From IMG/VR virus record IMGVR_UViG_3300037067_021792: DNA of 64,000 nucleotides; one strand, 5' to 3'. Below are positions 42,247-64,000 of the stretch, piece by piece; positions within the stretch are counted from its first letter, which is position 1, and the number at the start of each line of letters is the position of its first letter. A program made the position numbers and the translations under genes. Source of the DNA: a virus. Taxonomy: Duplodnaviria; Caudoviricetes. The notes beneath the pieces are model-generated. The model was not told where the DNA came from. It saw only the letters and a list, made by a program, of their open reading frames with translations, and ran no database searches.

Positions 42247-42954
42247 ATGAGTATGACTTACTACAAAATCACGAACAAAACCGAAACACATCACGGTCTT
42301 AAATACAAGACAGGATTAAACGTAGACCCTCTACCTTTCAATCCTCGTGGAGATTGTACTCCAGGTGGCATTTATTACACTGATGCCGAGAATATTCTAT
42401 ATTTCCTTGACTATGGTCCCTGGATCAGAGAGGTTATACTACCCAAAGACGCTCAAGTTTATCAAAATCATGGCTTACCTAAGAAATGGAAAGCAGATAA
42501 AGTCAAACTAGGACCACGTCATAAGTGGTGTAGCCTGGAGATTATTAAAAAGCTTATCAAAGAAGGTGCTGACATACACATCGATGATGATTATGTTTTG
42601 AGATTGGCCGCTGAAAGTGGTCATCTAGATGTGGTTAAATATTTGATTAAAAATGGTGCGGATATACATGCTAGGGATGATTATGCTTTAGGATGGGCTG
42701 TTAGCAATGATTATCTAGATGTGGTTAAATACTTGATTAAAAATGGCGCTGATATACATGCTAGGGATGATTGTGCTTTGCGATATGCTGCTAGCAATGG
42801 TCATCTAAGTGTAGTAAAATATCTCGTAGAAAAGGGTGCTGATATACACGCCGTGGATGATTGGGCTTTTCAGTGGGCTGCTATCAGGGGTCATATGGAT
42901 ATAGTAGAATTTTTATCAACTGTCAGTGAGAATGCTAGACTAGGATGGCGGTAG
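42247..42954 (+). CDS. N-domain + ankyrin-repeat protein, copy 1 (four 30-aa units)
   Basis: YYKITN..GGIYYT..KWKAD plus GADIHxxDDxxLxxAAxxGHLxVVKYL. Confidence 0.9.
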   Translation: MSMTYYKITNKTETHHGLKYKTGLNVDPLPFNPRGDCTPGGIYYTDAENILYFLDYGPWIREVILPKDAQVYQNHGLPKKWKADKVKLGPRHKWCSLEIIKKLIKEGADIHIDDDYVLRLAAESGHLDVVKYLIKNGADIHARDDYALGWAVSNDYLDVVKYLIKNGADIHARDDCALRYAASNGHLSVVKYLVEKGADIHAVDDWAFQWAAIRGHMDIVEFLSTVSENARLGWR

Positions 42955-43380
42955 CAGAAGTGGCTGATCCTTCTCTGTTTCTCCTAGTTTTAATCCATCT
43001 TGTGAAAGAGACAAACCAAGCTGGTCTACGACATTGCATAGATATATACAAGCCTGAACATCTGCCTCGTTGGGTTCTGTCCATTCCTGAAGCTGAAGCG
43101 CCGATTTAGCAGGATCGATGGAGCACTGATAGCATTCTTCGCTCATTTTTTTACCGAACAAGACACCAGGCTGATTGAGGGAGACAGATGTTCCTAAAAT
43201 TCTGCGCCTGGCATGTTCATATTTAAAAAGGGCAATGAACGATTCTTTGAATAATGATCCGAGTTCATCGATATTGTCTATGATGAAATCTAATTGTTCT
43301 CGAACTTCTTGTTGCACTAGATTCCACCAATTGGCGGATATTAGTGCTAGTTTGATCGAATTAATTTTATGCTGTTCCAC
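42940..43380 (-). CDS. Hypothetical protein
   Basis: ORF with GTATAAT upstream. Confidence 0.55.
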   Translation of the reverse strand: MEQHKINSIKLALISANWWNLVQQEVREQLDFIIDNIDELGSLFKESFIALFKYEHARRRILGTSVSLNQPGVLFGKKMSEECYQCSIDPAKSALQLQEWTEPNEADVQACIYLCNVVDQLGLSLSQDGLKLGETEKDQPLLLPPS

Positions 43381-43585
43381 GTCTACATTATACCTTTTTC
43401 TTTTGACTTTTGGGATTAATGCGATTAGAATAATTTAAAGGAGAAAAAATGAATTCTTGTGTCGGTATTTCAATAACGCTCGGCGCTTTTTTGTTGTTCC
43501 TGTCTCTTGCTCATATGGGAGATCAATTATCGATTATTGCGAAGCATCTGGAAAATATCTTGGAGCAACTGAAATTGAGGAAGCT

Positions 43586-44251
43586 GTGAAAATCGATGTT
43601 TCGCAGAAATTATCTCCAGCAAACAAGAGAAGCATAGTTTTGTTCGGCGGCGCTTTTGACCCTCCAACCCTGGCGCACTTAGCGGTTGCAAAATTTGTGT
43701 TGAACTCGAATTATGGAATAGATCAGGTATGGTTTACTCCGTGTTATAGGCATCGTTATAACAAAAATATGGCACCATGTGAAGATCGTTTAGCCATGTG
43801 CCAATTGATGTTAGATGATAATCGGATAAAAGTATTTGATTATGAAATTAAAAACCGCCTGCGAGATGGAACATACGATTTTATCAAGAGATTATTAGAA
43901 GAACAACAATTTATTCAAGATAAATACAATTTATCTTTGCTTATTGGAATGGATAATGCTAACACTTTTGATAGATGGGTCAATTCTGAAGAGCTTAAGA
44001 AGCTAATACGATTTATAGTAGTTCCGCGTGCGAGTGAAAGTCCTAATCCGAAAGTGGATTGGTATTTAAAACCGCCGCATATCTTTTTGCAGTCAGATAA
44101 ACAATTGCCACATATATCATCTACTGATGTCAGAAAATTTACTTTTCGTCGGTATGTTGGAACACCGAGTTGTGAGGCTGATGTTCTTAGGATGATAAAT
44201 CCCAATGTTTGGGAATACATTCAGTCTCACGGGCTGTATCAAAATCAATAG
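43586..44251 (+). CDS. nadD: Nicotinate-nucleotide adenylyltransferase
   Basis: GGAFDPPTLAH, R.AM, IGMDN..F.RW, ISSTDVR; probable GTG start at 43586. Confidence 0.88.
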   Translation: MKIDVSQKLSPANKRSIVLFGGAFDPPTLAHLAVAKFVLNSNYGIDQVWFTPCYRHRYNKNMAPCEDRLAMCQLMLDDNRIKVFDYEIKNRLRDGTYDFIKRLLEEQQFIQDKYNLSLLIGMDNANTFDRWVNSEELKKLIRFIVVPRASESPNPKVDWYLKPPHIFLQSDKQLPHISSTDVRKFTFRRYVGTPSCEADVLRMINPNVWEYIQSHGLYQNQ

Positions 44252-44264
44252 TAAAGGAATTGAA

Positions 44265-44735
44265 ATGGACGAGTATGACAGTGCCGCTGATACTGCTGCC
44301 CATATAGCAGAAGTAGCTAAGAATCTCTCAATCTTTGTATCAGAATTAGTTAATCGAGCAGGTAGTCATGATAAAAGTAAGTTTGGCGTGGAAGAAAAAT
44401 CTGCCTTTGATAAAATTACTCCGCTATTGAAAAATACTACTTATGGTTCGGATGGGTATAAAGCAGCACTAAAAGAACAAAAACCTGCCATTGATCATCA
44501 CTATCAAAATAATCCACATCATCCAGAGCATTATAAAAACGGTATTTGCGATATGAATTTGGTAGACTTATTAGAAATGTTAGCAGATTGGTTCGCTGCC
44601 ACCAAAAGACATGCCAACGGCGACATTTTGAAAAGTCTTGAAATTAATACTGATCGATTTGAGATAGGAGCACAATTACACTGGATACTTGAAAACACAA
44701 TTAGAGAATTCTTTTTGGAGAAAACAAATGATTGA
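44265..44735 (+). CDS. HD-like hydrolase (DUF5662-like)
   Basis: HI..V, HDKSKF, HHYQNNPHHPEHY, EMLADW. Confidence 0.75.
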   Translation: MDEYDSAADTAAHIAEVAKNLSIFVSELVNRAGSHDKSKFGVEEKSAFDKITPLLKNTTYGSDGYKAALKEQKPAIDHHYQNNPHHPEHYKNGICDMNLVDLLEMLADWFAATKRHANGDILKSLEINTDRFEIGAQLHWILENTIREFFLEKTND

Positions 44736-45076: not shown

Positions 45077-46378
45077 ATGGCAGATGTGATAGAACACAGG
45101 AAATTTGTATTTGTCTCAAACAACCTTAACAGCAACAAGCGATGGGAAGTGCTCTTATACGATAACGATGACGTAGAAGTGAGATATGGCAGAATCGGAA
45201 AATCCTTACAAAGTAAGGTTCATCCCGGTGCTGGTCGTAGAAGGATGGAGTCTTCGATTCGAGATAAAACCAGTCCATCTGAGCATTATGATGGTGGTTG
45301 TTATCGAGAAATCGAAGTGCTTGATACTGCCGCTACATCATCTCCTGCCTGTATATCATCATCAAAATCAGAATTAAAGAAAATTGCTAAGGCGCAAATT
45401 GCTACTTGCCCTATTACACAAAAACTAATTGAATTCTTCACAGAAGTTAATGCTCATAACATTTCTCATGCTACTGGTGGGCGTATTACTTATGATGTGT
45501 CTGCTGGCACATTCCGCACACCTGTTGGTATTGTTACAAAGTCAAATGTCGATGCGGCACGGACTCTGCTGGATGATCTTACGGGGTTTATTACCAAGAA
45601 TTCATTTGGTAAGCCGTTTATTACAACCCTTGAAGATTATTTAATGCTCATACCTCAAGATGTTGGCCGCAAATTTGACCCCCGCGGTTTTTGTGGAAGC
45701 ATTGATGCTATTCAACATCAGAGCCAAATTCTTGATGGATTGGATGCATCAATTCAATCGGTTTTATCAGCTCCCAAAAATGGGAAGAAGAAAGAGGAAG
45801 CGGAAACACCGAAGCTATTCAATGTTAAATTGTCAGTTGTAGATGATAAGGATATTTTAACTGAAATTCGCACATTCTTTAATAAAGGACGGCATCACGG
45901 TCATAGAAGTTACGATCTCAAGATTACAAAGGCATATGCAATCGATATGCCAACAATGAAAGACGCATGGGATCGCGATGGCTCTAAACTAAATAACCAG
46001 TGGAAGTTATTCCACGGGACAAAAGCATCTAATTGTCTTTCAATACTTAAAAATGGGTTTGTGATTCCACCTGCTTCTGCTTCTCATGTATGCGGGCGGA
46101 TGTATTCGAATGGGTGCTATCATTCAGATGAGAGCACAAAATCCCTGAATTATGCTACAAATTATTGGGGCGGAAGGGACGAGGGTAGATATTTTATGTT
46201 TTATAATCTAGTAGCTATGGGTAATTATTTCATTCCTTCTGGTTCTCGGTCTTCTCCTCCGCCTAAAGGATATGATTCATATTTTGCAAAAGCAGGGCAA
46301 TCTGGTGTGATGAATAACGAAATGGTAGTTTTTAGAACCTCCCAAATCCTACCCCTAAATTTATTAGAATTTGAATAA
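45077..46378 (+). CDS. WGR-domain PARP-like ADP-ribosyltransferase
   Basis: SNK.W..YGRIG (WGR); LFHGT, GRMYSNGCY..KSLNY, NNE = H-Y-E triad. Confidence 0.9.
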   Translation: MADVIEHRKFVFVSNNLNSNKRWEVLLYDNDDVEVRYGRIGKSLQSKVHPGAGRRRMESSIRDKTSPSEHYDGGCYREIEVLDTAATSSPACISSSKSELKKIAKAQIATCPITQKLIEFFTEVNAHNISHATGGRITYDVSAGTFRTPVGIVTKSNVDAARTLLDDLTGFITKNSFGKPFITTLEDYLMLIPQDVGRKFDPRGFCGSIDAIQHQSQILDGLDASIQSVLSAPKNGKKKEEAETPKLFNVKLSVVDDKDILTEIRTFFNKGRHHGHRSYDLKITKAYAIDMPTMKDAWDRDGSKLNNQWKLFHGTKASNCLSILKNGFVIPPASASHVCGRMYSNGCYHSDESTKSLNYATNYWGGRDEGRYFMFYNLVAMGNYFIPSGSRSSPPPKGYDSYFAKAGQSGVMNNEMVVFRTSQILPLNLLEFE

Positions 46379-46407
46379 AGGATTTTCATAATATTCTCTT
46401 GTATAAT
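46378..46407 (+). promoter_or_regulatory. Class-2 promoter
   Basis: AAGGA-N18-GTATAAT. Confidence 0.6.
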
Positions 46408-46412
46408 ACATA

Positions 46413-46583
46413 ATGGAGAATATTATGAAAACTTCAAAATACAAACTATTAAACGATAGGGAATGGCTCTATCAAAAGCACCATGTTGAAAATCTGGACG
46501 CCAATCAGATTGCCAAACAGGTCGGATGTAATCAGGGTTCTGTTGTGCAATCTTTTAAGCGTTTAGGTATAGTCTTTAAAAAG
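46413..46583 (+). pseudogene. N-terminal HTH of a homing-endonuclease-like gene, cut by a GC-rich segment
   Basis: LLNDREWLYQKH..ANQIAKQVGC..V..KRLGI; composition switches abruptly after 46583. Confidence 0.55.
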
Positions 46584-47854
46584 GTCCGCGAGCGCAAAGT
46601 CGGAGAAACGAGATGAATCTGGACCGATTGGATCAGGACTTGATGGCCTTGAGCGTGCCTACGGTCGCGCCTGGCCCGCACGTGGAAACCCTGGCCGTGC
46701 GTTTGTCGCCTCGCTGGGGAGCCGTTTCGCGCGGACGAATGTCGCCACGCAGACGTGCCGCCCTCTTTGTGGGCATCGCACTCGCCAGCCTATCGGCTGC
46801 CGCCGGCACCTACACCTACCACCGCTACGTATTCGGTACAACTTGGACCAGAGCGTCGTCCGAGCCTGAGACACCCGATGAGCAGGCGTTTGCCGACTTC
46901 GACTCAGCACACCGTGACGAGGCCATCGGACTTTGGAAGAGTGGACAGGTCACACTGCTGGAGCGGAAGCCGGACACCTCCGATCGCATGAGCGTATACG
47001 TGGTTCGCTTCGATTTTCAGGACGGCACATCCGAGACGGCCAAGATGGGCGATCATCCGAATCCGGCCCTGCGCGCCGAATGGCGGCAGATTCGCGACGC
47101 CGGCGGCGGAGAGCTCGTTTCGCTCCGTCGCTTTCCGAACGGAACGGTGATGTATGTCGTCCAGTATGCACTGTCCAGCGGAGAGACGATCCGGCAGCTC
47201 TCCAATGTCCCGCCGATGTCGAAAGCGGACCGATTCGCGGCCTACGACTTCGTGACCGAGCAGATGAAGGTCGGCGGCGGGCGGGTCGTTGGGACGACCA
47301 GCACGGGTATGCTCGTAGTCGAACTTGAGCTTCCGGACGGACACCCGTTCACGGAGGTCGTGCAGCCACCATACCCGCGGGCGGGGCTGACGCCGGAGCG
47401 TCAGGAGGAGATCTCCGAGATGATTGCGCTGGGGCAGGGAGATTTCAAAGACCAGCTCTTCTCAGCGCAAGGGTCGTGTTACGTGGTCGAATATGTGTTG
47501 TCCGACGGAACTTCCTTCCGCATGGGCGGGGATCGGCCCGTGATGACGGATGCCGCGTGGGACGCGGCCCGTGTGGAGGCGGCGACACTGTACGCCGCCG
47601 GCCAGTACACGCGCGAGACGGTCACCGCCACCGACGGTCAGGCGGTTGAGGTCCTTGTGATAACGCTATCGACCGGCTACGTCGCGAAAATCCGCGACGT
47701 GGCCCAAGCGCGGGCGCTGTGGGGGCTCGAGTAATCCGCTGCGCTCCAGGGACCTAAGCGTGAATCGGAGATTGGCCTATGCCATAGCGTAGGACGAGGA
47801 TTCGGAAGAGCAATCAGCCAGGCACTACGCCGCCCGATGCGGGGCGGCGCGGGG
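46584..47854. other. GC-rich foreign segment (~1.27 kb)
   Basis: Sharp switch to GC-rich sequence with G/C third positions; sharp return at about 47855. Confidence 0.9.
46613..47734 (+). CDS. Single-pass membrane protein with five ~50-aa repeats (anti-sigma-like layout)
   Basis: RRRAALFVGIALASLSAAAG TM; repeats G.G....YVV.Y.L.DG; ATGA-coupled to upstream gene tail. Confidence 0.7.
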   Translation: MNLDRLDQDLMALSVPTVAPGPHVETLAVRLSPRWGAVSRGRMSPRRRAALFVGIALASLSAAAGTYTYHRYVFGTTWTRASSEPETPDEQAFADFDSAHRDEAIGLWKSGQVTLLERKPDTSDRMSVYVVRFDFQDGTSETAKMGDHPNPALRAEWRQIRDAGGGELVSLRRFPNGTVMYVVQYALSSGETIRQLSNVPPMSKADRFAAYDFVTEQMKVGGGRVVGTTSTGMLVVELELPDGHPFTEVVQPPYPRAGLTPERQEEISEMIALGQGDFKDQLFSAQGSCYVVEYVLSDGTSFRMGGDRPVMTDAAWDAARVEAATLYAAGQYTRETVTATDGQAVEVLVITLSTGYVAKIRDVAQARALWGLE

Positions 47855-47905
47855 ATATATCACTAGAAGAATCTTATAGATGCTACTAATTTCTCATATG
47901 TTTTG

Positions 47906-47962
47906 GTCGTAGTTTATAGAACGTCTCAGATTCTTCCAACTCATTTGATGGAGTTCTCATGA
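47906..47962 (+). pseudogene. Second copy of the PARP C-terminus
   Basis: VVVYRTSQILPTHLMEFS* versus MVVFRTSQILPLNLLEFE* at the end of PARP. Confidence 0.8.
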
Positions 47963-48258
47963 TGGATTTTTCTGCTGCCTTAATTTTGTTAAAACAAGGT
48001 TGTCACATTCGACGCACCGAATGGACAGCGGGAGCGTATTGGTCTTTGGGTAAAAAATGGATCGAACAAATATCTTTTTACGCTGGTCAAAAAATAACTG
48101 AGCAACGTGGGGCTTTTGAGATAGAGGAAATGTTAGCAACCGATTGGGAGAAAGTAGGTCCTGATTGGTCCGAAGAATATTTCAAACAAGTATCTTGGGA
48201 GAAACATAAGAAAAGTTGTGAAAAATACGCCAAAGAACAGTCGGAGAAAACCGCATGA
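47959..48258 (+). CDS. Tad2-like (DUF2829) anti-defence nucleotide-sponge protein
   Basis: MDFSAAL..LKQG..IRR.EW...EMLATDWE. Confidence 0.65.
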   Translation: MMDFSAALILLKQGCHIRRTEWTAGAYWSLGKKWIEQISFYAGQKITEQRGAFEIEEMLATDWEKVGPDWSEEYFKQVSWEKHKKSCEKYAKEQSEKTA

Positions 48259-48533
48259 ATTTCGTTTGTGAACAATGTGGCGAAGTTGACACTATTTTGA
48301 TAGATGGATATAATTTCGGAGATCGTCTACTCGAAGGGGTGATGTTCCGGGTCAAATATGTTAGAGATAAATTAACTGCCACAATTGAACCAGAATCTGT
48401 GGAGTATATGAAGAGATTAAATAAAAAGAAATGGATCAAGGAATGCCTTGATTTTATTGAATCGGCAGACGAATTCTCAGGCCAATGTTCCGTATGTGGG
48501 AGCGAAGTGTGTTCTGACGACGAAATTTATTAA
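48255..48533 (+). CDS. Zinc-binding hypothetical protein
   Basis: CEQCG..GDRLLEGVMF..CSVCG. Confidence 0.6.
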   Translation: MNFVCEQCGEVDTILIDGYNFGDRLLEGVMFRVKYVRDKLTATIEPESVEYMKRLNKKKWIKECLDFIESADEFSGQCSVCGSEVCSDDEIY

Positions 48534-48587
48534 GCAGGATTTTTCCTCCAGGTATTGTATATAATTACAGCACTTGGAGGATTTTTT

Positions 48588-54295: not shown

Positions 54296-54307
54296 ACTTA
54301 TTTTTAG

Positions 54308-54335: not shown

Positions 54336-54381
54336 AGTGGGTAGCGTTGTCGAAAAACCCAGAACAAAAAAGGAAGGCAAG

Positions 54382-55068: not shown

Positions 55069-55115
55069 TCGTTTGCTGGGGGATTTCTTAACTAAAAAGA
55101 GCTACCAAAAATAAA

Positions 55116-55811
55116 ATGAGACGTAATATATCTCGATCCGGTTCAGTCCGGCGAGAAAAACACGATAGGTATCAGATTAAAAATTGGGTAGATAGGCTGC
55201 CCGATGTTCCATGTTTTGTTTTGGGCAATGCACCAAGTATTTTAGACCACGACATATCTCTACTTGAAAACTATTTTACCATAGGTATTAATCGTGCGTT
55301 TAAATTGATTGATCCAACAGTTTTGCTGTGGCAAGATGCTAGTTTTTGGAGAACAGAGTATTATAATATCCATAATTTGCAAGCACTAAAAATAGCCAGG
55401 GATACTGCCGACCCTAGACGATTATATTTCAATTTTCATTTGAAAGGCGATTATAAATTTGCCAATCCGAAACAGTCTCATATTTTATATGGCAGAGGCA
55501 GTTCCGGACCTATTGCGATCCAACTTGCATATGCTCTTGGGTGTAGACCAATAGTTCTACTTGGCATGGACTGTCAAACGGATGATCAAGGTAGAGGAGA
55601 TTTCTATGGTAACAATAGATTTTGGCTACCCCACACCCTCGATAGTTGCCAGAAGGGGTTAGAATTTATTAGAAAAAACTGTCCAGTGGAAATAATATCG
55701 TGCGGGAATTCGCCCTTGTGGGATCGAAGGGAATTATCGGATGTGTTAAAAAGCCTAAAAGTAAAACCAATGGGTAGGCAGCAATATATCGCTCAACTAT
55801 CTGCTTTTTAA
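55116..55811 (+). CDS. DUF115/MptE/Maf-like glycan-modifying enzyme
   Basis: CFVLGNAPS, TIGIN, SG..AIQLAYALGC.PIVLLGMD. Confidence 0.7.
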   Translation: MRRNISRSGSVRREKHDRYQIKNWVDRLPDVPCFVLGNAPSILDHDISLLENYFTIGINRAFKLIDPTVLLWQDASFWRTEYYNIHNLQALKIARDTADPRRLYFNFHLKGDYKFANPKQSHILYGRGSSGPIAIQLAYALGCRPIVLLGMDCQTDDQGRGDFYGNNRFWLPHTLDSCQKGLEFIRKNCPVEIISCGNSPLWDRRELSDVLKSLKVKPMGRQQYIAQLSAF

Positions 55812-55839
55812 TTGACAATCTCGGAATTTGTGTTATACT
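55812..55839 (+). promoter_or_regulatory. sigma70-type promoter of ankyrin copy 2
   Basis: TTGACA-16-TATACT. Confidence 0.75.
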
Positions 55840-55859
55840 TTACAAGTACGAAAAGGAGA

Positions 55860-56633
55860 ATGGTCGTGCCATTTTACAAAATCACAAATGAAGCTGAAAC
55901 ACACAACGGCTTGAAATACAAGACAGGATTAAACGTAGACCCCCTACCTTTCAATCCTCACGGAGATTGTGAGCCAGGTGGCATTTATTACACTGATGCT
56001 AGAAATATCTTTCATTTCCTCAACTATGGTCCCTGGATCAGAGAGGTTATACTACCCAAAGACGCTCAAGTTTATCAAAATCCTGGCACCCCTCTAAAGT
56101 GGAAAGCAGATAAAGTTAAGTTAGGACCACGCCATAAGTGGAGTAGTGTAGAAGTTCTCAAGAGTCTTATCAAAGAGGGTGCGGATATACATACTAATGA
56201 TGATTATGTTTTGAGATGGGCTGCTGAAAGTGATCATCTAGATGTGGTAAAATACCTGGTTAAAAACGGCGCTGATATACATGCTTGGAATGATTATGTT
56301 TTGAGATGGGCTGCTTGTAATGGTCATCTAAATGCGGTTAAATATCTCGTTAAAAATGGCGCTAATATACACTCTGGGGGTGATTGGGTTTTGATGTCCG
56401 CTGCTGAGGCGGGTCAACTAAGTGTAGTAAAATATCTCGTAGAAAAGGGTGCTAATATACACGCTGGGGATGACTATGCCTTGAGACATGCTGCTTACAA
56501 TGGTCATCTAGATATAGTTAAATACTTGGTTAAAAACGGCGCTAATATACACGCTGGGGATGATTGGGCTTTACGATATGCTGCTTGTAATGGCCATCTA
56601 GATGTGGTTAAATACCTGGGAAGCAACAGATGA
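55860..56633 (+). CDS. N-domain + ankyrin-repeat protein, copy 2 (five 30-aa units)
   Basis: Paralog of 42247; AAGGAG RBS. Confidence 0.9.
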   Translation: MVVPFYKITNEAETHNGLKYKTGLNVDPLPFNPHGDCEPGGIYYTDARNIFHFLNYGPWIREVILPKDAQVYQNPGTPLKWKADKVKLGPRHKWSSVEVLKSLIKEGADIHTNDDYVLRWAAESDHLDVVKYLVKNGADIHAWNDYVLRWAACNGHLNAVKYLVKNGANIHSGGDWVLMSAAEAGQLSVVKYLVEKGANIHAGDDYALRHAAYNGHLDIVKYLVKNGANIHAGDDWALRYAACNGHLDVVKYLGSNR

Positions 56634-56765
56634 GAACCGGACAGGTACTCTATGCGGCAGTAATGAAAGATTCTGGCGAAATATTTTCCCACCCAGAAGG
56701 AGAGATAATGTCGGAGTCCAAAGCTGGGCTGGATTTCTTTGGGAATAGCATTGAAATTATAGACA

Positions 56766-58149
56766 ATCAACTACCCAACCGCTAAAGACGGTCGGGTTTG
56801 CTCCTTAACAGGAACGATTGGCTAGTTGATAGTAGCCTGCCCATCAGGTTTAATCTGCCGCGTAGCGGCAAATTAAAGGAGACAGGGTGTTTAGCTCCTT
56901 TCGCTTCTTGAGTCTGAACATACTTACGAGCTATATTAATAGCAGCATTCCAGTCTGCATCAAATATTACTCCATCAGAAGCGTTGAACCTACATCCCTT
57001 CCGCTCTCCTCCAGCCAGACCACGATGGTCTCTTTGACTAGTATAAGCAGGGTTAACCGTTTTAATCCTCTTCCCTCGAATAGGTGCCTTGTAGGTCAGG
57101 ATGCTCAACAGCATCCCAAAAGGAACTTGACTAAGTCTATTTTTGGAAGATTTACTCTTCTTGTAATTGTTCTTTCTCAAGTTCTTCTTTTTGAGATTGG
57201 ACAAGTCTTCCAAAACAATCGTGTTGGAACTGGCCTCAAGAATTTTGTTAGCCAGATGATGAGACATGTTCCTATTTTTGTTTCTCTCTTGTCTGCGTAT
57301 CTTATGGAGCTTCCTTTTGGAAGAATGAGAATTAGTCTTCTTCCTCTTGGAATTGAGGACTCTTTTAAGATAACGTAGAGCCCGTTTTTGTTGGAGGAAG
57401 TCTTTGTCAGTGAGAGCCAAACCTTCTGATGTGACAGCAAAACGACGTTCGCCAAGGTCCACACCAATACAGGTATTCTCTACAAAAGTAGGCTCAGGAA
57501 CCTCAAAGGAGATTGACAGCCAGAACTGATTGTCTCTGACAAAAACGAGTGGATCACAAGCAGAATACTTTGAGAATAGTTCCTCGAACTTATCATAAGG
57601 CTGGTAGGAACAGATAATACGTTTGCCAGTCGTGGTGAGTTTAATCTGATTATTATCTAGGAAGGTGTAAAGTCTCTTGTCTAGGCGGATGCTTAGGTTA
57701 GTTTGTTGACAAGGTTCTTTTAACTGACTGAGCATTTTACTGGTTTTGAGAGCTTTGTAGGTAGCGTAGACTGAGTTGATAGCTCGTATAATAACTTGTG
57801 AGGGAGCGTTAGGAAAGAGTTTTCTGCACTGGTGATAGTTAGCATCCTGAATATGCTTTTTGTCGAGCTTCTGTCGTTTGAAGGTGTCAACGGATATATG
57901 GTTCCAAGCCTTTTGGTGCTCCAAAAGTGTTGATAAGAGGAGATTGTGGTCCTCTTGGGAGTTGAAGGAGAGTTTGATGTTGTAGGTTATATTGCTCACA
58001 ATTGTTACTTACGGAATGATTATACAAGTTCCTTTGTGGAATTTGAAAAATTAGGAATTATTTTCAAGGAGGCGGATTGCTAACTCCTTGGCTAAAGACC
58101 AAGGAGCTTCCGCAATCCGAACATAGTGAAACGGGTTCGTATGCCCGGT
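56766..58149 (-). mobile_element. TnpB-only IS200/IS605-family element (IS1341-like)
   Basis: Subterminal hairpins with identical loop CTAAAGA near 56774-56796 and 58084-58106; right end GGGTAGTTGAT; no tnpA. Confidence 0.78.
56782..57999 (-). CDS. tnpB: TnpB RNA-guided nuclease
   Basis: IGVDLG, IVLEDL, VNPAYTSQ, DADWNAAINI. Confidence 0.92.
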   Translation of the reverse strand: MSNITYNIKLSFNSQEDHNLLLSTLLEHQKAWNHISVDTFKRQKLDKKHIQDANYHQCRKLFPNAPSQVIIRAINSVYATYKALKTSKMLSQLKEPCQQTNLSIRLDKRLYTFLDNNQIKLTTTGKRIICSYQPYDKFEELFSKYSACDPLVFVRDNQFWLSISFEVPEPTFVENTCIGVDLGERRFAVTSEGLALTDKDFLQQKRALRYLKRVLNSKRKKTNSHSSKRKLHKIRRQERNKNRNMSHHLANKILEASSNTIVLEDLSNLKKKNLRKNNYKKSKSSKNRLSQVPFGMLLSILTYKAPIRGKRIKTVNPAYTSQRDHRGLAGGERKGCRFNASDGVIFDADWNAAINIARKYVQTQEAKGAKHPVSFNLPLRGRLNLMGRLLSTSQSFLLRSKPDRL

Positions 58150-58269
58150 TTAATTGGGTAATGACTAATTTTGATTATCATCCATTAGAGTTATCAGTAG
58201 GAGAATATTTTGAAAAACCCGTTCTTCGTAATTGGAGAACCAGCAAAGGCAGGATCGTAGAGGAATAAA

Positions 58270-58737
58270 ATGTATCTGACATTCGTTGAAAATGCTGATA
58301 AATGGAAGGATACGGTTCGAGGGTATTCAATAGATGATGAAATTATATTGCACGGGAAGCCTCGGGAATTTCCTTGTTTTATGATGCTTGGTAATATCAT
58401 AGGACATGACGCATATTGTAATTTTATTTATGAAGAAGATATTGTCCCTCTTTTGGACTCAAAAAAATACGTAAAAGCAAAGCACGTTGTTGACTTGTTA
58501 AATGAATTGTTTGAATACCAACCTGAATTTATCGCATCTATTGTGAATGCTAGATTTCCCGTAAACACGCTTGTTGCAAATCACCCGTTCATTCAAGTCA
58601 CACCGGATCGAACCGCTGGATTTTTGGGCATTATAAATGGGTTTTTTGGGGAAGTAAAAGATGGACATAGAGGGCACGTTAACGCCATTTTTAATGATGA
58701 TGGAAAACTTATTAAATTTGAAGAGGAGCAACCATGA
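58270..58737 (+). CDS. Hypothetical protein
   Basis: ORF coupled to nadE. Confidence 0.6.
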   Translation: MYLTFVENADKWKDTVRGYSIDDEIILHGKPREFPCFMMLGNIIGHDAYCNFIYEEDIVPLLDSKKYVKAKHVVDLLNELFEYQPEFIASIVNARFPVNTLVANHPFIQVTPDRTAGFLGIINGFFGEVKDGHRGHVNAIFNDDGKLIKFEEEQP

Positions 58738-60446
58738 AAGTGGCGATGTGTCAAGTTAATCCCACCATTGGAGACTTATCTGGTAATCTGAGGATTATGT
58801 CTCAGTCTATTGAATCTGTTTTACAACATGATGTAAGTGTGATATTATTTCCGGAAATGGCAACCACAGGTTATCCCCCGCGTGATCTTTTATATCGTGA
58901 AGATATGTGGGATCAGCAATCTGTGATTGCCGATGAGATTCAGGGTATTTTAAGGCGATCTCAAAAACAAGTAACTGCCATTTATGGTGGTATTGATAAA
59001 GTAAGACTTTCAAATGGGCGATATGCTCGATATAATGCTGCTTATATTGTAGACCCAGATCAAATCAGAGTTATTCACAAAAGGCTGCTCCCTTGCTACG
59101 ACGTGTTTGATGAAACTCGATATTTTGTCCCCGAAACTGGACCATTAACACCTATTAAGTTAGTTGGAGTTGAAGGCAATTGTGATATTCTTATCTGTGA
59201 GGATATTTGGAATCATAATTTTCAAGGGGTTACTTGGCAATCTCCAGCACCATATAACATCGATCCAGTATCTGAATTGAAAGGCACTGGGCCATTGTTT
59301 GTTTTGAACGCCTCGCCTTTCTGGCGGGGAAAGATCAAAACCACAATTGATCTTTTGCAATCAGTGCAGTCCAAAATTAAACGACCTGTTCTTTGGTGTA
59401 ATCAGGTTGGTGCCCACGACGATATTGTAACTGGCGGGTATTCTATGGCAGTGGGCCAAAACGGACTTTATATGTTGAAGCCATTTGCTGAAGACATGAT
59501 AATTGTTAATGTCATGGATAACAAGAATGTTGTATGTCACCCCATTGATATCGGTTTCCGTTTTCCGTCTTTCGGAAAACAAATTGAATTTCAGGAACAT
59601 TTTGAGGAGTGGTGTGTATATCAGTCCCTAAAGCTACATCTTTCTGATTACTGTCGCCGCACTGGCTTTAAGGATGTAGTTCTTGGTTTGTCTGGCGGTA
59701 TTGACAGTGCATTAGTTGCCACGATTGCGGCCGATGTATTAGGCAGTGAACACGTATATGCCATTACTATGCCATCAAAATATTCATCAGAGGGTAGTAT
59801 TAAGGATTCTGAGAAACTTGCAAAAAATTTACACATCCGGTTATTCAACCAGCCAATAGGTGAAATACATCAATCATTTTTGGATTCATGCCTAAGCGGT
59901 GGAATACAAAAATTTAATAATCCTCTTACCGATGAGAATATACAGCCGAGAATAAGAATGATACTCCTAATGGCGTGGAGCAATGATCACAAGGCATTGC
60001 TTTTGACTACAGGCAACAAGTCAGAAATATCGATGGGATATTCTACATTATACGGCGATATGGCAGGTGGTGTAGCACCAATTAGCGATTTATGGAAAAC
60101 AGAAGTGTATAGTCTATGCCGATTCATTAATTATTATCGCGGAGAAATTATACCTCAACAAATTATTGATAAACCTCCATCGGCAGAATTGAGACCCGAC
60201 CAAAAAGACACTGATAGCCTACCGCCATATGAAATTTTAGATCCTATCTTAGAATCTATAATTAGTAATGAACCAATAGAGAAAACGTATGAAATTGCAA
60301 ATGGTGCGAATGTAAATAAGATTTTGCATCAGTATACCATATCAGAATTCAAAAGACAACAATTGCCGATAGGTCCAAAAGTATCTCTAGTATCTTACGG
60401 TAGTGGTAGAAGAATACCAATTGCAGCGAAAGTGACAACAATTTGA
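58734..60446 (+). CDS. nadE: Glutamine-dependent NAD+ synthetase
   Basis: Nitrilase triad FPEM/HKRLLP/ICED; LSGGIDS, ENIQPRIR, TGNKSE, PPSAELRPDQKD. Confidence 0.95.
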   Translation: MKVAMCQVNPTIGDLSGNLRIMSQSIESVLQHDVSVILFPEMATTGYPPRDLLYREDMWDQQSVIADEIQGILRRSQKQVTAIYGGIDKVRLSNGRYARYNAAYIVDPDQIRVIHKRLLPCYDVFDETRYFVPETGPLTPIKLVGVEGNCDILICEDIWNHNFQGVTWQSPAPYNIDPVSELKGTGPLFVLNASPFWRGKIKTTIDLLQSVQSKIKRPVLWCNQVGAHDDIVTGGYSMAVGQNGLYMLKPFAEDMIIVNVMDNKNVVCHPIDIGFRFPSFGKQIEFQEHFEEWCVYQSLKLHLSDYCRRTGFKDVVLGLSGGIDSALVATIAADVLGSEHVYAITMPSKYSSEGSIKDSEKLAKNLHIRLFNQPIGEIHQSFLDSCLSGGIQKFNNPLTDENIQPRIRMILLMAWSNDHKALLLTTGNKSEISMGYSTLYGDMAGGVAPISDLWKTEVYSLCRFINYYRGEIIPQQIIDKPPSAELRPDQKDTDSLPPYEILDPILESIISNEPIEKTYEIANGANVNKILHQYTISEFKRQQLPIGPKVSLVSYGSGRRIPIAAKVTTI

Positions 60447-60465
60447 AAGAATTGGAGAATAAAGC

Positions 60466-61071
60466 GTGAATCCTATTATTGGCATTTGTGGCGGAATAGG
60501 CTCCGGCAAATCTCATGTTGCATTACTTTTTGAATCATTGGGATGTGCTGTTTTTAATGCAGATCAGGAGGCGCATAATTGTTTGTCTGGGGATCGGGAA
60601 GTTATAGAACAAATTCAACAGAAATTGGGATATGAATGCTATCCATCTATGGGCTTTGGGTGGCCACAGCCGGATCACAAAAAGATAGCCGAAGTAGTTT
60701 TTGGTTCTCCGGAAAAACTTAAGATTCTTGAATCGATAGTAATACCGCAAGTTATAGACCGATGTTTGCATTTTATATGTAAATATCGCAGTAAGCATCC
60801 CATAGTATTAGATGCGCCATTACTATTTGAGAGAAACATTCACGGATTATGCGATACAATTGTTTTTGTTTCTGCATCTTTTGAAACTCGATGTAAGAGA
60901 GTAGAAAAACGGGGATGGTCCAAACAATACTTGTCATTTCGAGAATCGTTTCAGATTCTTCCTGCCGTGAAACAACAATTGTCGAATTATATCATTAATA
61001 GCGAGGATGGCTCTGATTTAGTGGAACAGGTCTCGGCAACGATGAATAAAATTTTGGAGAAATACCTTTGA
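60466..61071 (+). CDS. coaE: Dephospho-CoA kinase
   Basis: [26 protein letters not shown]. Confidence 0.88.
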
Positions 61072-61262
61072 AAGCAGCGTTTTGTGGCTCATTTGATCCA
61101 ATTACGTTAGGGCATATCGATATTATAGAGCGAGCATCTAGAATGTTTGATTTTCTTTTGATTGGTATAGGACAAAATACTGTGCCATGTCGGCTGGTTT
61201 CGCTGGTTTCGCTGGTTTCGCTGGTTTCGTCAAACCGGGGGCAAGTTTTTGATTTGGCTTGA
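61068..61262 (+). pseudogene. coaD: Truncated phosphopantetheine adenylyltransferase
   Basis: [28 protein letters not shown], then similarity is lost at a tandem repeat. Confidence 0.8.
61193..61229 (+). repeat. 9-bp tandem repeat GCTGGTTTC x4
   Basis: Direct reading. Confidence 0.92.
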
Positions 61263-61286
61263 CATCTCAAAATCTTGGAGTATACT
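61259..61286 (+). promoter_or_regulatory. sigma70-type promoter
   Basis: TTGACA-16-TATACT; ATG 7 nt later, possibly a leaderless mRNA. Confidence 0.75.
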
Positions 61287-61292
61287 TAACAT

Positions 61293-61754
61293 ATGAGAGC
61301 AGTTCTGAGTAAAGCGCATTACAGTCGGCCACTTGACCGTCCACATAGAATACGTTTATGCGATTACGAATATCAATTTTGTTCCCTATCTACTCTCACT
61401 AAGGACGAGTGGCGTTTTATTCATAAGTATATGAGTTTTCCTGGTGGTGGCATACGATACTGGAGAAACAGTCGTCAGCGTGGTATGCGTATGGCATTAT
61501 TGTATTATGATAGGCATTTAATTGCTTGGTGTGCAATTGACACTGAATATTCAGGTGCCCTTGGAGCATTGTCAAAAAATCCAGGTGTAACTTGTTGGGT
61601 TTTAGATTCGTGGAGAAACAAAGGTATAGCAACAAGAATCATCGATGCTGCATTAAAAAGATACAGAATTCAGGGAAAAGTCGATGTGTATAATCGGAAA
61701 ATGAAACATATTTGTAGTAAACTTGGGCACAATCCAGAAAACATTTGGAATTAG
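61293..61754 (+). CDS. GNAT acetyltransferase
   Basis: LIAWC..CWV..WRNKGIATRII acetyl-CoA motif. Confidence 0.7.
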   Translation: MRAVLSKAHYSRPLDRPHRIRLCDYEYQFCSLSTLTKDEWRFIHKYMSFPGGGIRYWRNSRQRGMRMALLYYDRHLIAWCAIDTEYSGALGALSKNPGVTCWVLDSWRNKGIATRIIDAALKRYRIQGKVDVYNRKMKHICSKLGHNPENIWN

Positions 61755-61765
61755 GAGGTGTCATT

Positions 61766-62452
61766 TTGCTTCGGACAAAATTTTACAAAATCACAAATGA
61801 AACCGAAACACACAATGGCTTGAAATATAAGACAGGATTAAACAGAGACCCCTTGCCTTTCCATCCTCATGGAGATTGTACTCCAGGTGGAATCTACTTT
61901 ACTGATGCCAAGAATATCTTATATTTCCTTGACTATGGTCCCTGGATTAGAGAGGTTACACTACCCAAAGATGCTCAAGTTTATAAAAATCCTGGCACCC
62001 CTCTAAAATGGAAAGCAGATAAAGTTAAGTTAGGACCACGTCATAAGTGGTGCAGCTTGGCGATTGTTAAGAAACTTATTAAAAAAGGTGCGGATATACA
62101 CATCGATGATGATTATGTTTTGAGATTGGCTGCTTGTAATGGTCATCTAGATGCGGTTAAATATCTCGTTAAAAATGGAGCTGATATACATGTTAGGAAT
62201 GATTATGCTTTAGGATGGGCTTCCAACAATGGTCATCTAGATATAGTTAAATACTTGCTTAAAAACGGTGCTAATATACACTCTGGGGGTGATTATGCCT
62301 TGAGATTGGCTGCTGAAAATGGCCATCTAAGTGTAGTGAAATACTTGGTTAAAAACGGCGCTAATATACACGCCGGGGATGATTGTGCTTTGAGATGGGC
62401 TGCTAGAAATGGCCATCTAGATGTGGTTAAATTCCTGGAGGATAACAAATGA
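61766..62452 (+). CDS. N-domain + ankyrin-repeat protein, copy 3 (four 30-aa units)
   Basis: Paralog; AGGAGG RBS; stop overlaps the pncB start. Confidence 0.9.
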   Translation: MLRTKFYKITNETETHNGLKYKTGLNRDPLPFHPHGDCTPGGIYFTDAKNILYFLDYGPWIREVTLPKDAQVYKNPGTPLKWKADKVKLGPRHKWCSLAIVKKLIKKGADIHIDDDYVLRLAACNGHLDAVKYLVKNGADIHVRNDYALGWASNNGHLDIVKYLLKNGANIHSGGDYALRLAAENGHLSVVKYLVKNGANIHAGDDCALRWAARNGHLDVVKFLEDNK

Positions 62453-63600
62453 TAATCAATTCTTTGTTAGACAACGACCTTTACAAATTTTGCATGGGTC
62501 AATGCGTTTTCTTCGGAAAATATGATGGAGTATCATTCCAAAACGTTGATGTCGAATACGAATTTATTAATAGGGGTGATACGCAATTTCCAGATGGGTT
62601 TGCGAGAAGTCTGGAAGACGAAATCGTTGGCTTGCACTGTCTGCGGTTAAATTCCGATGAGGCGGATTACCTTCGCAATATTCGGTTTATGAAACGTGCC
62701 TACGTAGATTTCTTGAGTTCTTACTCTTTTGATTCTAGTGAAGTAAAAGTATGCCAATCAGGCGGGGATTTAAAGGTTACAATATCTGGTCCCTGGTATC
62801 GCACTATTTTCTGGGAAGTCCCCCTGATGGCGATTATCAGTGAGTTGTATTATAAAATAGCCGGTGTTTCTCCCAAGTTCGACTATATACTGAAAACTAA
62901 GGAAAAAGCATTTACACTATCCAATGCGGGATGTAAATTTTCTGATTTTGGCACCCGCCGAAGATTTTCGATGGAAGTTCATGATGACATAGTTGATATA
63001 TTCCGGTATCTAGCCGTAGGAACCAGTAACGTTTATTTAGCCAAGAAATATGAAATGACTCCAATTGGGACTATGGCTCATGAAATGTTTATGGCTATCG
63101 CAGCTTTGTTTGGATACAAGAGAGCAAATCAGATTGTACTTGATTTGTGGAATGAAGAGTTTAATGGCGATTTGGGAATTGCCCTGTCGGATACGTTTAC
63201 TAGCGATGTGTTTTTTGAACAATTTAATATGAGAAACTCCAAGCTTTTCGACGGAGTTAGACAGGATTCTGGCGATCCGATTCAATTCGCCCAAAAGACA
63301 ATTAATCATTATCAAAAAATGCGAATTAATCCCATAAGCAAAACCATCATTTTCAGCGATTCACTAGATGTCAATAAAGCAATTCAAATTGCAGATTTCT
63401 GTAAAGGCAAAATTCAGTGTGCCTTTGGTATTGGAACTCACATGACGAATGATGTCGGGCATAAACCGCTAAATATGGTAATCAAAATGTCTAAATGCAA
63501 TGGTAAATCGACCGTAAAACTATCAGATACACCAGGTAAACACACTGGCGATCCTAATGAGATTGTGAAGTGTGAACAAGAGCTTGGAATCGAGGAGTGA
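62449..63600 (+). CDS. pncB: Nicotinate phosphoribosyltransferase
   Basis: SLLDNDLYKF.M, DFGTRRR, GTSNV, GTMAHE, RQDSGD, FGIGT, KLSD. Confidence 0.95.
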   Translation: MIINSLLDNDLYKFCMGQCVFFGKYDGVSFQNVDVEYEFINRGDTQFPDGFARSLEDEIVGLHCLRLNSDEADYLRNIRFMKRAYVDFLSSYSFDSSEVKVCQSGGDLKVTISGPWYRTIFWEVPLMAIISELYYKIAGVSPKFDYILKTKEKAFTLSNAGCKFSDFGTRRRFSMEVHDDIVDIFRYLAVGTSNVYLAKKYEMTPIGTMAHEMFMAIAALFGYKRANQIVLDLWNEEFNGDLGIALSDTFTSDVFFEQFNMRNSKLFDGVRQDSGDPIQFAQKTINHYQKMRINPISKTIIFSDSLDVNKAIQIADFCKGKIQCAFGIGTHMTNDVGHKPLNMVIKMSKCNGKSTVKLSDTPGKHTGDPNEIVKCEQELGIEE

Positions 63601-63603
63601 GTA

Positions 63604-63783
63604 ATGCTAATTAAAGTAGAACTAGAAGGTGGAAAGACTGTGCTTTTAAATGACAGTCAAGTATGCTCTGTGGTAGCATATTCCCCGGACAATATTGGTT
63701 GTATTGTTCGTATGTCTAATGGAGATGAATATCTTGTTTTAAAGCCAACATACAAACAGTGGGAAAATGATACTTTCGTGTGA
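63604..63783 (+). CDS. Small hypothetical protein
   Basis: MLIKVELEGGKTVLLNDSQV...; GAGGAG RBS. Confidence 0.55.
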   Translation: MLIKVELEGGKTVLLNDSQVCSVVAYSPDNIGCIVRMSNGDEYLVLKPTYKQWENDTFV

Positions 63784-63825
63784 TTCTAGGTTGAAATCTT
63801 GCCGCTTAATTTCATGGAGCAAACA

Positions 63826-64000
63826 ATGACTTACTACAAAATCACAAATGAAACCGAAACACATCACGGTCTTAAATACAAAACAGGATTAAACGTAGAC
63901 CCTGTTGCTTTTAACCCTCACGGAGATTGTGAGCCAGGTGGCATTTATTACACTGATGCTAGAAATATCTTTCATTTCCTCAACTATGGTCCCTGGATTA
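63826..64000 (+). CDS. N-domain (+ presumably ankyrin) protein, copy 4, truncated by window edge
   Basis: MTYYKITNETETHHGLKYKTGLNVDP...GGIYYTDARNIFHFLNYGPWI. Confidence 0.88.
   Translation, partial: MTYYKITNETETHHGLKYKTGLNVDPVAFNPHGDCEPGGIYYTDARNIFHFLNYGPWI

What the first reader, a model, noticed from the sequence alone, without database searches (positions are those of the whole stretch)
42247..64000. Four dispersed mosaic paralogs of an N-domain + ankyrin gene forming a DARPin-like binder repertoire
Seen: copies at 42247, 55860, 61766 and 63826 share a near-identical ~90-aa N-domain. The three complete copies then carry 4, 5 and 4 ankyrin units of 30 aa (90 nt). The scaffold GA(D/N)IH..D..L..AA..GHL.VVKYL(V/I)KN is nearly fixed, while the hairpin and helix-1 positions vary (IDDDYVLRL/ES, ARDDYALGW/SN, AWNDYVLRW/CN, SGGDWVLMS/EA, AGDDYALRH/YN, AGDDCALRW/RN). 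Identity is patchwork: copies 2 and 4 share an 83-nt identical block (55956-56038 = 63916-63998); copies 1 and 4 share the start; copies 1 and 3 share the IDDDYVLRL unit; copies 1 and 2 share CTAAGTGTAGTAAAATATCTCGTAGAAAAGGGTGCT. Established: those positions form the ankyrin binding face. Inference: recombination or gene conversion shuffles specificity modules, probably against host proteins.
Basis: partly seen in the sequence, partly recalled or inferred. Interest (0 to 1): 0.82.

Follow-up and report, generated by a model that had tools for sequence, protein, structure and literature searches.

The report
Giant-virus-type ankyrin gene family in phage
A huge uncultured bacteriophage carries at least six scattered genes that join a constant small head domain (shared with mimivirus-type giant viruses, fold like an ADP-ribosyltransferase) to short ankyrin repeats whose binding face differs between copies. 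The copies do swap short stretches, but one copy as assembled is probably a stitching error.

Summary

- **Family.** They belong to a family of over 3,000 protein clusters. A ~95-aa head is fused to 30-aa ankyrin units, the same design as Mimiviridae ankyrin paralogues. Here it sits in a tailed-phage-like genome.
- **Head.** It has no Pfam name. Its confident model matches almost only ADP-ribosyltransferase folds, and weakly (Z up to 6). His and Tyr are conserved, but no acidic residue is.
- **Variation.** It lies mostly in the hairpin and inner helix. dN/dS stays below 1.
- **Gene conversion.** It is real (PHI p=0.0005). One head block has 5-8x read depth.
- **Assembly.** Three assemblies join the pieces around copy 2 differently, so its five units are unreliable.
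- **Context.** The copies are interleaved with a complete NAD salvage set.

Most likely this is a panel of target-specific effectors used inside the infected bacterium. This scan reached the same reading earlier on other phage DNA. I found no paper describing the phage version.

The parts
42247..42954 (+). Copy 1: head (42247-42531), cap helix, four 30-aa ankyrin units (42565-42924). TAG stop.
   Evidence: A GGGAG ribosome-binding-like motif lies 7 nt before the ATG.
55812..55839 (+). Sigma-70-like promoter (TTGACA, 16 nt, TG-TATACT; 11 of 12) just upstream of copy 2
   Evidence: This is a consensus match only.
55866..56633 (+). Copy 2 as assembled: head 55866-56144 and five units 56178-56627. 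The GTG at 55866 is the likely start (AGGAG lies 7 nt upstream). Probably a join of two paralogues.
56275..56393 (+). 119-nt exact stretch present twice in the phage population. It is the point where the other assemblies leave the window sequence.
   Evidence: The unitig 56275-56381 has depth 145 against 70-77 in its arms. A second left arm carries A at 56274. L003 matches the window up to 56393 and L004 matches from 56300.
55956..56038 (+). 83-nt block identical to 63916-63998 (copy 4) and shared with further copies
   Evidence: The unitig 55956-56075 has depth 403 against 77, about 5 copies.
61766..62452 (+). Copy 3: head 61766-62053 and four units 62087-62446. Its stop overlaps the start of the NAPRTase gene.
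63826..64000 (+). Copy 4: first 58 residues of the head, cut by the window end. The full gene (233 aa, 4 units) is at L004 7527-8228.
40701..41273 (+). Isochorismatase-family protein, nicotinamidase-like; part of the NAD salvage context
43457..44251 (+). Cytidylyltransferase-like protein, NadD/NMNAT-type adenylyltransferase candidate
45077..46378 (+). Protein with a PARP catalytic domain
47959..48258 (+). Tad2-like (Thoeris anti-defence 2) domain protein
   Evidence: 29.1 bits against a cut-off of 25
58734..60446 (+). NAD synthetase (NadE type)
62449..63600 (+). Nicotinate phosphoribosyltransferase, lying between copies 3 and 4
56782..57999 (-). TnpB (IS200/IS605-type) gene right after copy 2; a multi-copy element
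   Evidence: Loose ends at 56765 and 56795 and raised depth.

Best explanation
The window holds four members of a dispersed gene family with at least six members in this phage; read depth suggests about eight heads. Each protein has two parts:
- a constant ~95-residue head, homologous to the head of Mimiviridae ankyrin paralogues and predicted to have an ADP-ribosyltransferase-like fold;
- 3 to 6 short (30-aa) consensus-like ankyrin units, packed rigidly against the head.

Shown:
- the homology, the architecture and purifying selection on the head and scaffold;
- variation concentrated in the hairpin and inner helix;
- old divergence of the paralogues (dS about 0.5), overlaid by gene-conversion tracts of 30 to over 230 nt.

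Inferred:
- The proteins are made in the infected bacterium. Every copy has a Shine-Dalgarno-like motif, and copy 2 has a sigma-70-like promoter.
- Each ankyrin array holds a different host protein, and the common head acts on that protein.
- The most likely action of the head uses or binds NAD+ or ADP-ribose, which would fit the phage's own NAD salvage genes lying between the copies.

The family would thus be a panel of target-specific host-takeover or anti-defence effectors.
For: - Family and architecture: 3,316 clusters; 57 giant-virus hits; TM 0.9; 38-52% identity; a Moumouvirus protein with the same head and 30-aa unit; arrays up to 66% identical.
- Phage setting: beta clamp, clamp loader, DnaK, GroEL and TnpB; Shine-Dalgarno-like motifs and a promoter-like site.
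- Models: full length pLDDT 96, pTM 0.90; head alone pLDDT 90.9.
- Head fold: nearly all of the 50 best of 48,161 PDB representatives are ADP-ribosyltransferase-fold proteins. These are Arr (Z 6.0), TreX (5.8), BC2332 (5.8), Tpt1 (5.5), then scabin, pertussis-like and diphtheria toxins, PARPs and DarT.
- Head residues, in the order expected for the H-Y-E clade across 280 domains: H16 96%, Y44 96% (motif GG[IL]YF[TS]), aromatic F54 89%.
- Selection: dN/dS is 0.17 in the head, 0.21 in the scaffold and 0.70 at the variable positions. Entropy pattern.
- Gene conversion: and 5x unitig depth.
- NAD context.
Against: - Fold matches are weak: Z is at most 6, below the tool's own trust line of 8.
- Foldseek against PDB found nothing at E<=0.001. 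A profile search of PDB sequences found nothing. hhalign against the window's own PARP domain gave probability 0.1.
- No acidic residue is invariant: E14 88%, D69 70%, D85 60%, E63 54%. Many members may therefore be non-catalytic.
- dN/dS does not exceed 1.
- No target, expression data or activity is known.
- NAD genes are not next to relatives in three other contigs, so that linkage may be local chance.
Confidence: 0.5

Rival explanations
1. Pure binders. The ankyrin arrays act as natural DARPin-like inhibitors or decoys of host proteins, for example defence proteins. The head is a non-catalytic cap, oligomerisation or docking module that only keeps an old ADP-ribosyltransferase-like shape.
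For: - No invariant acidic residue in the head.
- No sequence-level link to any ADP-ribosyltransferase.
- Head-only and multi-head proteins exist.
- The copies lie near a Tad2-like anti-defence gene.
Against: - H16, Y21, N26, Y44 and K81 are kept in 92-97% of 280 domains, and head dN/dS is 0.17. That is more constraint than a mere cap needs.
- H-Y-x variants of ADP-ribosyltransferases that lack the glutamate are still active (established knowledge on mono-ART PARPs).
Confidence: 0.28
2. The mosaic pattern is an artefact of short-read assembly through paralogous repeats and does not reflect biology.
For: - Three assemblies give three different joins around copy 2.
- Exact tracts of 119, 123 and 237 nt approach or exceed read and k-mer length.
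- Four contig ends fall inside family members.
Against: - Inside the window no two copies share more than 83 nt exactly.
- The copy 2 head with its first two units, copy 3 and the part of copy 4 in the window reappear with no mismatch in k=141 contigs. Such contigs cannot be chimeric across repeats shorter than k.
- The incongruent blocks are 27-83 nt long.
- A 120-nt unitig at 5x depth shows directly that several copies share one block.
Confidence: 0.12
3. The proteins are aimed at a eukaryote, not at the bacterial host. The phage would infect a bacterium living in or on protists, and the family would act like the eukaryotic association module of Wolbachia phage WO.
For: - The closest named relatives are in amoeba-infecting giant viruses.
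- Phage WO ankyrin proteins are the only hits in the phage collection.
Against: - No signal peptide or secretion domain is visible; the head starts at residue 1 with a beta strand.
- The samples are groundwater and landfill.
- The only host lead is a contig binned with a free-living Sulfurimonas genome.
- The family is common in many phage-like contigs.
Confidence: 0.08

Closest known systems
Mimiviridae head+ankyrin paralogue families (mimivirus R267 and L26, Moumouvirus goulette 'repeat protein', Megavirus baoshan and Tupanvirus ankyrin proteins; the same head is also fused to DUF4116 repeats)
   Same: Homologous head (TM 0.83-0.90, 38-52% identity). Same 30-aa ankyrin unit, with arrays up to 66% identical. 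Many copies per genome.
   Different: Here the genes lie in a phage-like genome with bacterial replication genes, Shine-Dalgarno-like motifs and a sigma-70-like promoter. Phage heads form their own clade (SH-aLRT 97). The copies are fewer and are interleaved with NAD genes.
Pfam DUF7666 (PF24703), an unnamed phage domain
   Same: Eight of 30 family heads match weakly (best E 7e-4). It is also the nearest named cluster by language-model features (0.87).
   Different: The window's own heads do not match it at E<=1. The family has no described function, and no paper in the library mentions it.
Ankyrin multigene expansions of large eukaryotic viruses: Bodo saltans virus with 148 copies and its 'genomic accordion' (PMC5871332), and poxvirus ankyrin/F-box host-range factors
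   Same: Many ankyrin binders, each joined to a common non-ankyrin partner domain. They evolve by duplication and recombination, and assemblies break at the copies.
   Different: The poxvirus partner domain is a C-terminal F-box-like module that recruits ubiquitin ligase. Bacteria have no such system, and here the partner is an N-terminal ADP-ribosyltransferase-like head.
Tankyrase (ankyrin clusters plus PARP domain) and the phage T4 ADP-ribosyltransferases Alt, ModA and ModB
   Same: The working logic would be the same if the head is active. Ankyrin repeats would choose the substrate of an ADP-ribosyltransferase, and the phage would use ADP-ribosylation to take over the host (established knowledge).
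   Different: There is no sequence similarity. The head is far smaller, about 95 aa. The catalytic acid is not conserved.
DARPins (designed ankyrin repeat proteins)
   Same: Best structural matches of the array (35-44% identity). The scaffold is fixed and the variable positions 7, 17 and 18 correspond to DARPin randomised positions 33, 13 and 14. The mapping comes from the Pfam Ank alignment.
   Different: The unit is 30 aa, not 33. About three beta-turn residues are missing, so DARPin positions 3 and 5 have no counterpart. Helix positions 10, 13 and 14, which are framework in DARPins, vary here.
Phage-borne ankyrin proteins of Wolbachia phage WO
   Same: Ankyrin repeat proteins encoded by a phage.
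   Different: Only 32-38% identity, confined to the repeats, and no head.

Membership tests
Ankyrin repeat proteins (Pfam Ank clan) | Significant match to the Ank profiles | tested here: met
   Ank_2 E 6.7e-30 to 1.2e-38, well above the cut-off, in all three complete copies
Ankyrin repeat proteins (Pfam Ank clan) | Stack of helix-turn-helix units joined by hairpin loops | tested here: met
   AF2 model with pLDDT 96 and paired helices in each unit. DARPins and natural ankyrins are the top PDB matches.
Ankyrin repeat proteins (Pfam Ank clan) | Canonical 33-residue period | tested here: not met
   The period is exactly 30 aa (90 nt) in every unit. Relatives show 29-31 aa. This is a short variant, not an exclusion.
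Mimiviridae-type head+ankyrin family | Homologous N-terminal head of about 95 aa | tested here: met
   BFVD gives 57 hits at E<=1e-3, all from giant viruses, with TM up to 0.90. The profile search finds 3,316 clusters. A giant-virus contig, L002, carries at least 6 paralogues.
Mimiviridae-type head+ankyrin family | Head directly followed by short (about 30 aa) ankyrin units of the GA(D/N)IH..DD.AL(R).A...GHL.VVKYL type | tested here: met
   Moumouvirus P0346 has the same layout and unit. Unit spacing of 30 dominates in relatives.
Pfam DUF7666 | Match above the family threshold | tested here: inconclusive
   The window heads give no hit. Eight of 30 relatives match weakly.
ADP-ribosyltransferase superfamily (H-Y-E / Arr-Tpt1-like minimal forms) | Split beta-sheet ART fold | tested here: inconclusive
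   Nearly all of the 50 best PDB matches are ART-fold, but Z is at most 6.0. Foldseek is not significant.
ADP-ribosyltransferase superfamily (H-Y-E / Arr-Tpt1-like minimal forms) | Conserved His in an early strand, Tyr in the G-x-Y-F strand and an aromatic about 10 residues later | tested here: met
   H16 96%, Y44 96%, F54 89% aromatic in 280 domains. The spacing compares with diphtheria toxin H21/Y54/Y65 and PARP1 H862/Y896/Y907 (established knowledge).
ADP-ribosyltransferase superfamily (H-Y-E / Arr-Tpt1-like minimal forms) | Invariant catalytic Glu/Asp | tested here: not met
   The best acidic columns are E14 88%, D69 70%, D85 60% and E63 54%.
ADP-ribosyltransferase superfamily (H-Y-E / Arr-Tpt1-like minimal forms) | NAD+ binding and ADP-ribosyl transfer | not testable with these tools
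   Needs biochemistry.
Gene conversion among paralogues | Spatially clustered incongruent sites and identical tracts without synonymous change | tested here: met
   PHI p=0.0005 and p<0.0005. Tract tests for copies 2-4, 1-2 and 1-4 give p<=0.006. The 83-nt block has 0 of 27 third positions changed. Unitig depth is 5x.

The most novel reading that the evidence does not exclude
The head is an active, minimal (~95 aa) NAD+-using enzyme: an ADP-ribosyltransferase, or a related NAD+/ADP-ribose-handling domain. The family, shared by huge phages and Mimiviridae, would then be a very large set of ankyrin-aimed modifying enzymes. One chemistry would be retargeted to many host proteins by swapping the ankyrin face, and in this phage it would be fed by its own nicotinamide-to-NAD salvage genes. 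That would give a function to the largest unexplained paralogue family of mimiviruses.
Probability: 0.25. Interest if true: 0.8.

Novelty: new member of a known kind. Interest (0 to 1): 0.55.

Why it matters
- **An old open question.** Head+ankyrin genes are among the largest paralogue families of mimivirus-type giant viruses, and to my knowledge no function has been assigned to them.
- **A tractable system.** The same head and the same 30-aa unit occur in many large phages. This shows gene flow, or common descent, between viruses of bacteria and viruses of eukaryotes. It also offers a bacterial system in which to test what the family does.
- **A concrete test.** The ADP-ribosyltransferase-like fold of the head, with conserved His and Tyr, gives a cheap hypothesis to check.
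- **A caution for metagenomics.** Family members break and mis-join short-read assemblies. Copy number, unit number and "mosaic" genes in such contigs need long reads before they are interpreted.

Tried and rejected
**Searches that found nothing**
- No whole genome is held for the window, so copies could not be counted genome-wide.
- Megablast of 22 kb against GenBank phages: no match.
- A protein search of phages returned only Wolbachia WO ankyrins, on the repeats alone.
- Pfam gave nothing for the window heads. A profile against PDB sequences gave only chance hits to ribosomal protein S29. hhalign of the head against the window's PARP domain was not significant. Foldseek against PDB was not significant.
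- PADLOC matched only an ankyrin-containing candidate, PDC-M72A, on the repeats.
- Rfam found nothing in 42-64 kb.
- The alternative left arm (A at 56274) was not found in JGI metagenome contigs.

- Exact look-ups of copy 1, copy 2 and P0011 were not on record.
- I tried to fetch Arr sequences for a profile comparison, but control genomes give no loci.
- The ankyrin-part search ranks by number of repeats. It could not show whether the five-unit copy 2 exists elsewhere.

**Ideas rejected or weakened**
- Whole-unit shuffling: no two units are more than 88% identical.
- Read-through of the TAG stops of copies 1 and 4 by the amber-suppressor-like tRNA would add only 10 and 9 residues.
- A giant-virus origin of the contig is rejected because of the bacterial-type genes and signals.

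**Not examined**
- A diversity-generating retroelement (reverse transcriptase with template and variable repeats) was not looked for.

Full report
**What is there.** Translation of the four stated places gives three complete proteins of 235, 257 and 228 aa, plus a 58-aa start cut by the window end.
- A tblastn of copy 3 finds only these four in the window, at 76-78% identity over the full length.
- From the motif YKI to the first GADIH is 101 residues in every copy, and every repeat unit is exactly 30 residues. TRF reports period-90 arrays.
- Pfam sees only ankyrin families, all on the C-terminal part. The first ~95 residues get no family.

**Setting.** The window encodes Hsp70, a GroEL-type chaperonin, a beta-clamp, a clamp loader, TnpB, a PARP-domain protein and NAD enzymes. 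Nearly all genes are on one strand.
- Every copy is preceded by a Shine-Dalgarno-like motif, and the upstream DNA is not homologous between copies.
- Copy 2 has an 11-of-12 sigma-70-like promoter.
- Earlier notes of this scan call the genome a ~268-kb uncultured huge phage. My checks agree with a phage and not a giant virus.
- Public runs from groundwater and landfill hold the stretch.

**The family.**
- The head of copy 3 finds 224 proteins in the indexed search. Almost all carry ankyrin repeats, and many sit on long contigs.
- A head profile finds 3,316 clusters at E<=1e-3 in 1.8 billion representatives.
- IMG/VR gives a phage-like contig with three copies and a giant-virus MAG with at least six.
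- Another phage-like contig has ten heads in 11 kb.
- The head model matches 57 giant-virus proteins in BFVD. These include Megavirus, Tupanvirus, Moumouvirus, klosneuviruses and mimivirus L26 and R267, at TM 0.83-0.90 and 38-52% identity.
- A Moumouvirus protein has the same head followed by the same 30-aa unit, and arrays reach 66% identity.
- In a quick tree, copies cluster by virus lineage and the phage heads form one clade with SH-aLRT 97. I left out the partial and duplicate rows named in that script.

This is therefore the Mimiviridae-type head+ankyrin family, here in a phage. The paper library describes ankyrin expansions in giant viruses (PMC5871332). I found no paper on this head, on DUF7666, or on ankyrin families in huge phages.

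**The head.** AlphaFold2 gives pLDDT 96 and pTM 0.90 for full-length copy 3, and pLDDT 90.9 for the head alone. The head is a small beta-rich domain with one helix, packed against the ankyrin cap.
- An exhaustive structural comparison with 48,161 PDB representatives lists almost only ADP-ribosyltransferase-fold proteins among the best 50.
  - The top five are Arr (Z 6.0, rmsd 3.4, 81 aligned), the Rhs toxin TreX (5.8), BC2332 (5.8), 9ld3, an ADPR complex (5.5), and tRNA 2'-phosphotransferase (5.5).
  - Scabin, pertussis-like, heat-labile and diphtheria toxins, PARPs, DarT, ParT and MbcT follow.
- Each Z is below the level at which the tool says a match can be trusted alone. The evidence is the one-sided composition of the list.
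- Foldseek and all sequence-profile tests are negative.
- Across 280 domains, K8, H16, Y21, G24, N26, C38, G41, G42, Y44, G58, P67 and K81 are kept in 92-98%. No acidic residue is kept in more than 88%.
- His, then Tyr 28 residues later inside GG(I/L)YF(T/S), then an aromatic 10 residues on, follows the order of the H-Y-E clade. That comparison rests on my knowledge of diphtheria toxin and PARP1 residue numbers.
- I put the ART-like fold at about 0.7 and catalytic activity at about 0.25-0.3.

**The arrays.** The Pfam Ank alignment (copy 1 residues 118-145 against profile positions 6-33) maps unit positions 12-16 to L-H-L-A-A of the consensus. It also shows that about three beta-turn residues are missing.
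- Among 16 internal units, the most variable positions are 7, 17, 14 and 6, followed by 22, 23 and 13, then 8 and 10.
- Positions 7, 17 and 18 correspond to DARPin randomised positions 33, 13 and 14. Positions 10, 13 and 14 lie on the inner helix.
- Hairpin plus inner helix has mean entropy 1.17 bits against 0.46 elsewhere (p=0.016).
- Pairwise dN/dS is 0.17 in the head, 0.21 in the scaffold and 0.70 at the variable positions. That set was chosen after seeing the data, so this shows relaxed or diversifying change, not proven positive selection. dS of about 0.5 shows the paralogues are old.

**Mosaicism.**
- Variable sites form blocks that pair different copies in different segments.
- PHI is significant for the head (43 informative sites, p=0.0005) and for head plus four units (p<0.0005). 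Longest-run tests are significant for copies 2-4, 1-2 and 1-4.
- Most tracts lie in the head or in scaffold stretches. Units themselves are never more than 88% identical, and nearest neighbours are only partly positional.
- Gene conversion is therefore real. What it visibly does is homogenise conserved parts. Movement of specificity-bearing units is seen at most once, in the IDDDYVLRL stretch of copies 1 and 3.

**Assembly conflict around copy 2.**
- A k=141 contig of 268,137 bp (L003) equals the window from 45854 to 56393 except for one 12-nt repeat unit. It then continues as a 199-aa, three-unit gene, followed by 5 kb of other genes, and ends in another head.
- A 45,935-bp contig from the same sample (L004) equals the window from 56300 to 64000 and begins inside a repeat.
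- In the contigs of two public runs, the arms on either side have single-copy depth (70-77). The stretch 56275-56381 has double depth (145), and a second left arm differs at 56274.
- A third assembly (35,276 bp, binned with a Sulfurimonas MAG) contains the missing 5 kb at 99.98%. It also holds a six-unit gene Y and a four-unit gene Z made of blocks seen in copy 4, in the 3' part of the window's copy 2 and in the 199-aa gene. It starts and ends inside family members.
- Y and copy 4 share 237 nt exactly.
- The 120-nt unitig over 55956-56075 has 5.2 times the flank depth in both runs, and the summed depth is about 8 times. Several copies therefore truly share identical tracts.
- Which head belongs to which array cannot be read from these assemblies. 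By my arithmetic from the contig lengths, the window end is also a contig end. I put the chance that the five-unit copy 2 is a mis-join at about 0.6.

**NAD context.** The following genes lie between and beside the copies:
- a nicotinamidase-like isochorismatase (40701-41273);
- a NadD-like adenylyltransferase (43457-44251);
- a PARP-domain protein (45077-46378);
- a Tad2-like protein (47959-48258);
- NadE (58734-60446);
- NAPRTase (62449-63600, overlapping the stop of copy 3);
- an NAD kinase just before a further copy in L004.

This is a full route from nicotinamide to NAD(P). It fits an NAD-consuming family, but it equally fits counter-defence against NAD-depleting host systems (PMC7824862). 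Relatives elsewhere lack it.

**Verdict.** The object is a phage member of a known giant-virus gene family, with a testable enzymatic idea for its head. The assembled gene structures need long-read confirmation. This scan reached the same reading on other phage genomes, and two first-stage notes on this genome raised the same two ideas.

Noticed in passing
window 32407-32476 (-): ARAGORN calls a tRNA with anticodon CUA (labelled Pyl), which is an amber-suppressor-like tRNA. Copies 1 and 4 end in TAG, but read-through would add only 10 and 9 residues.
   Followed up: partly
window 46613-47734 (+): A 373-aa ORF with G+C of about 0.535 in a 0.39 genome. It has no Pfam or PHROG match, and its N-terminal stretch is arginine-rich and then hydrophobic, like a membrane anchor. 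It looks recently acquired.
   Followed up: partly
window 48852-48896 (+), inside the 1644-aa gene 48555-53489: A perfect 12-nt tandem (TTAACAGATGCC, 3.8 copies, coding LTDA). The window has one unit more than the 268-kb contig. This is the only difference in 10.5 kb, so the two assemblies come from slightly different populations.
   Followed up: yes
window 56765-57999: The TnpB element after copy 2 is multi-copy in the samples. Other contigs join it at 56765 and 56795, and depth rises about fivefold at 56774-56840. A 10-bp hairpin lies at 56773-56797. A second TnpB follows copy 4 (L004 9091-9972).
   Followed up: partly
window 40701-63600 and L004 14391-15218: A complete nicotinamide-to-NAD(P) set: a nicotinamidase-like protein, NAPRTase, a NadD-like protein, NadE and NAD kinase. 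With it lie a PARP-domain protein, a Tad2-like anti-Thoeris domain, CoaE and a GNAT. Together they form an NAD-centred island.
   Followed up: partly
L006 1-11400 (JGI contig, 115 kb): Ten head-bearing genes (most with ankyrin repeats) in 11 kb of another phage-like contig, next to a glycosyltransferase and a lytic transglycosylase-like gene. The copies form their own clade.
   Followed up: partly
L008-L014 (GTDB genome contig JBAZIE010000026.1): A 35-kb piece of this phage, 99.98% identical over 5 kb, is binned in a 'Sulfurimonas sp.' MAG. No other part of window 44-64 kb is in that bin. This is a weak host lead only.
   Followed up: partly
window 61193-61229 (+): A perfect 9-nt tandem (GCTGGTTTC, 4.1 copies) at the end of ORF 61068-61262.
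   Followed up: no
proteins P0125, P0126, P0138: Some database proteins carry two or three heads in one chain (385-1097 aa). These are either fused tandem genes or true multi-head forms.
   Followed up: no
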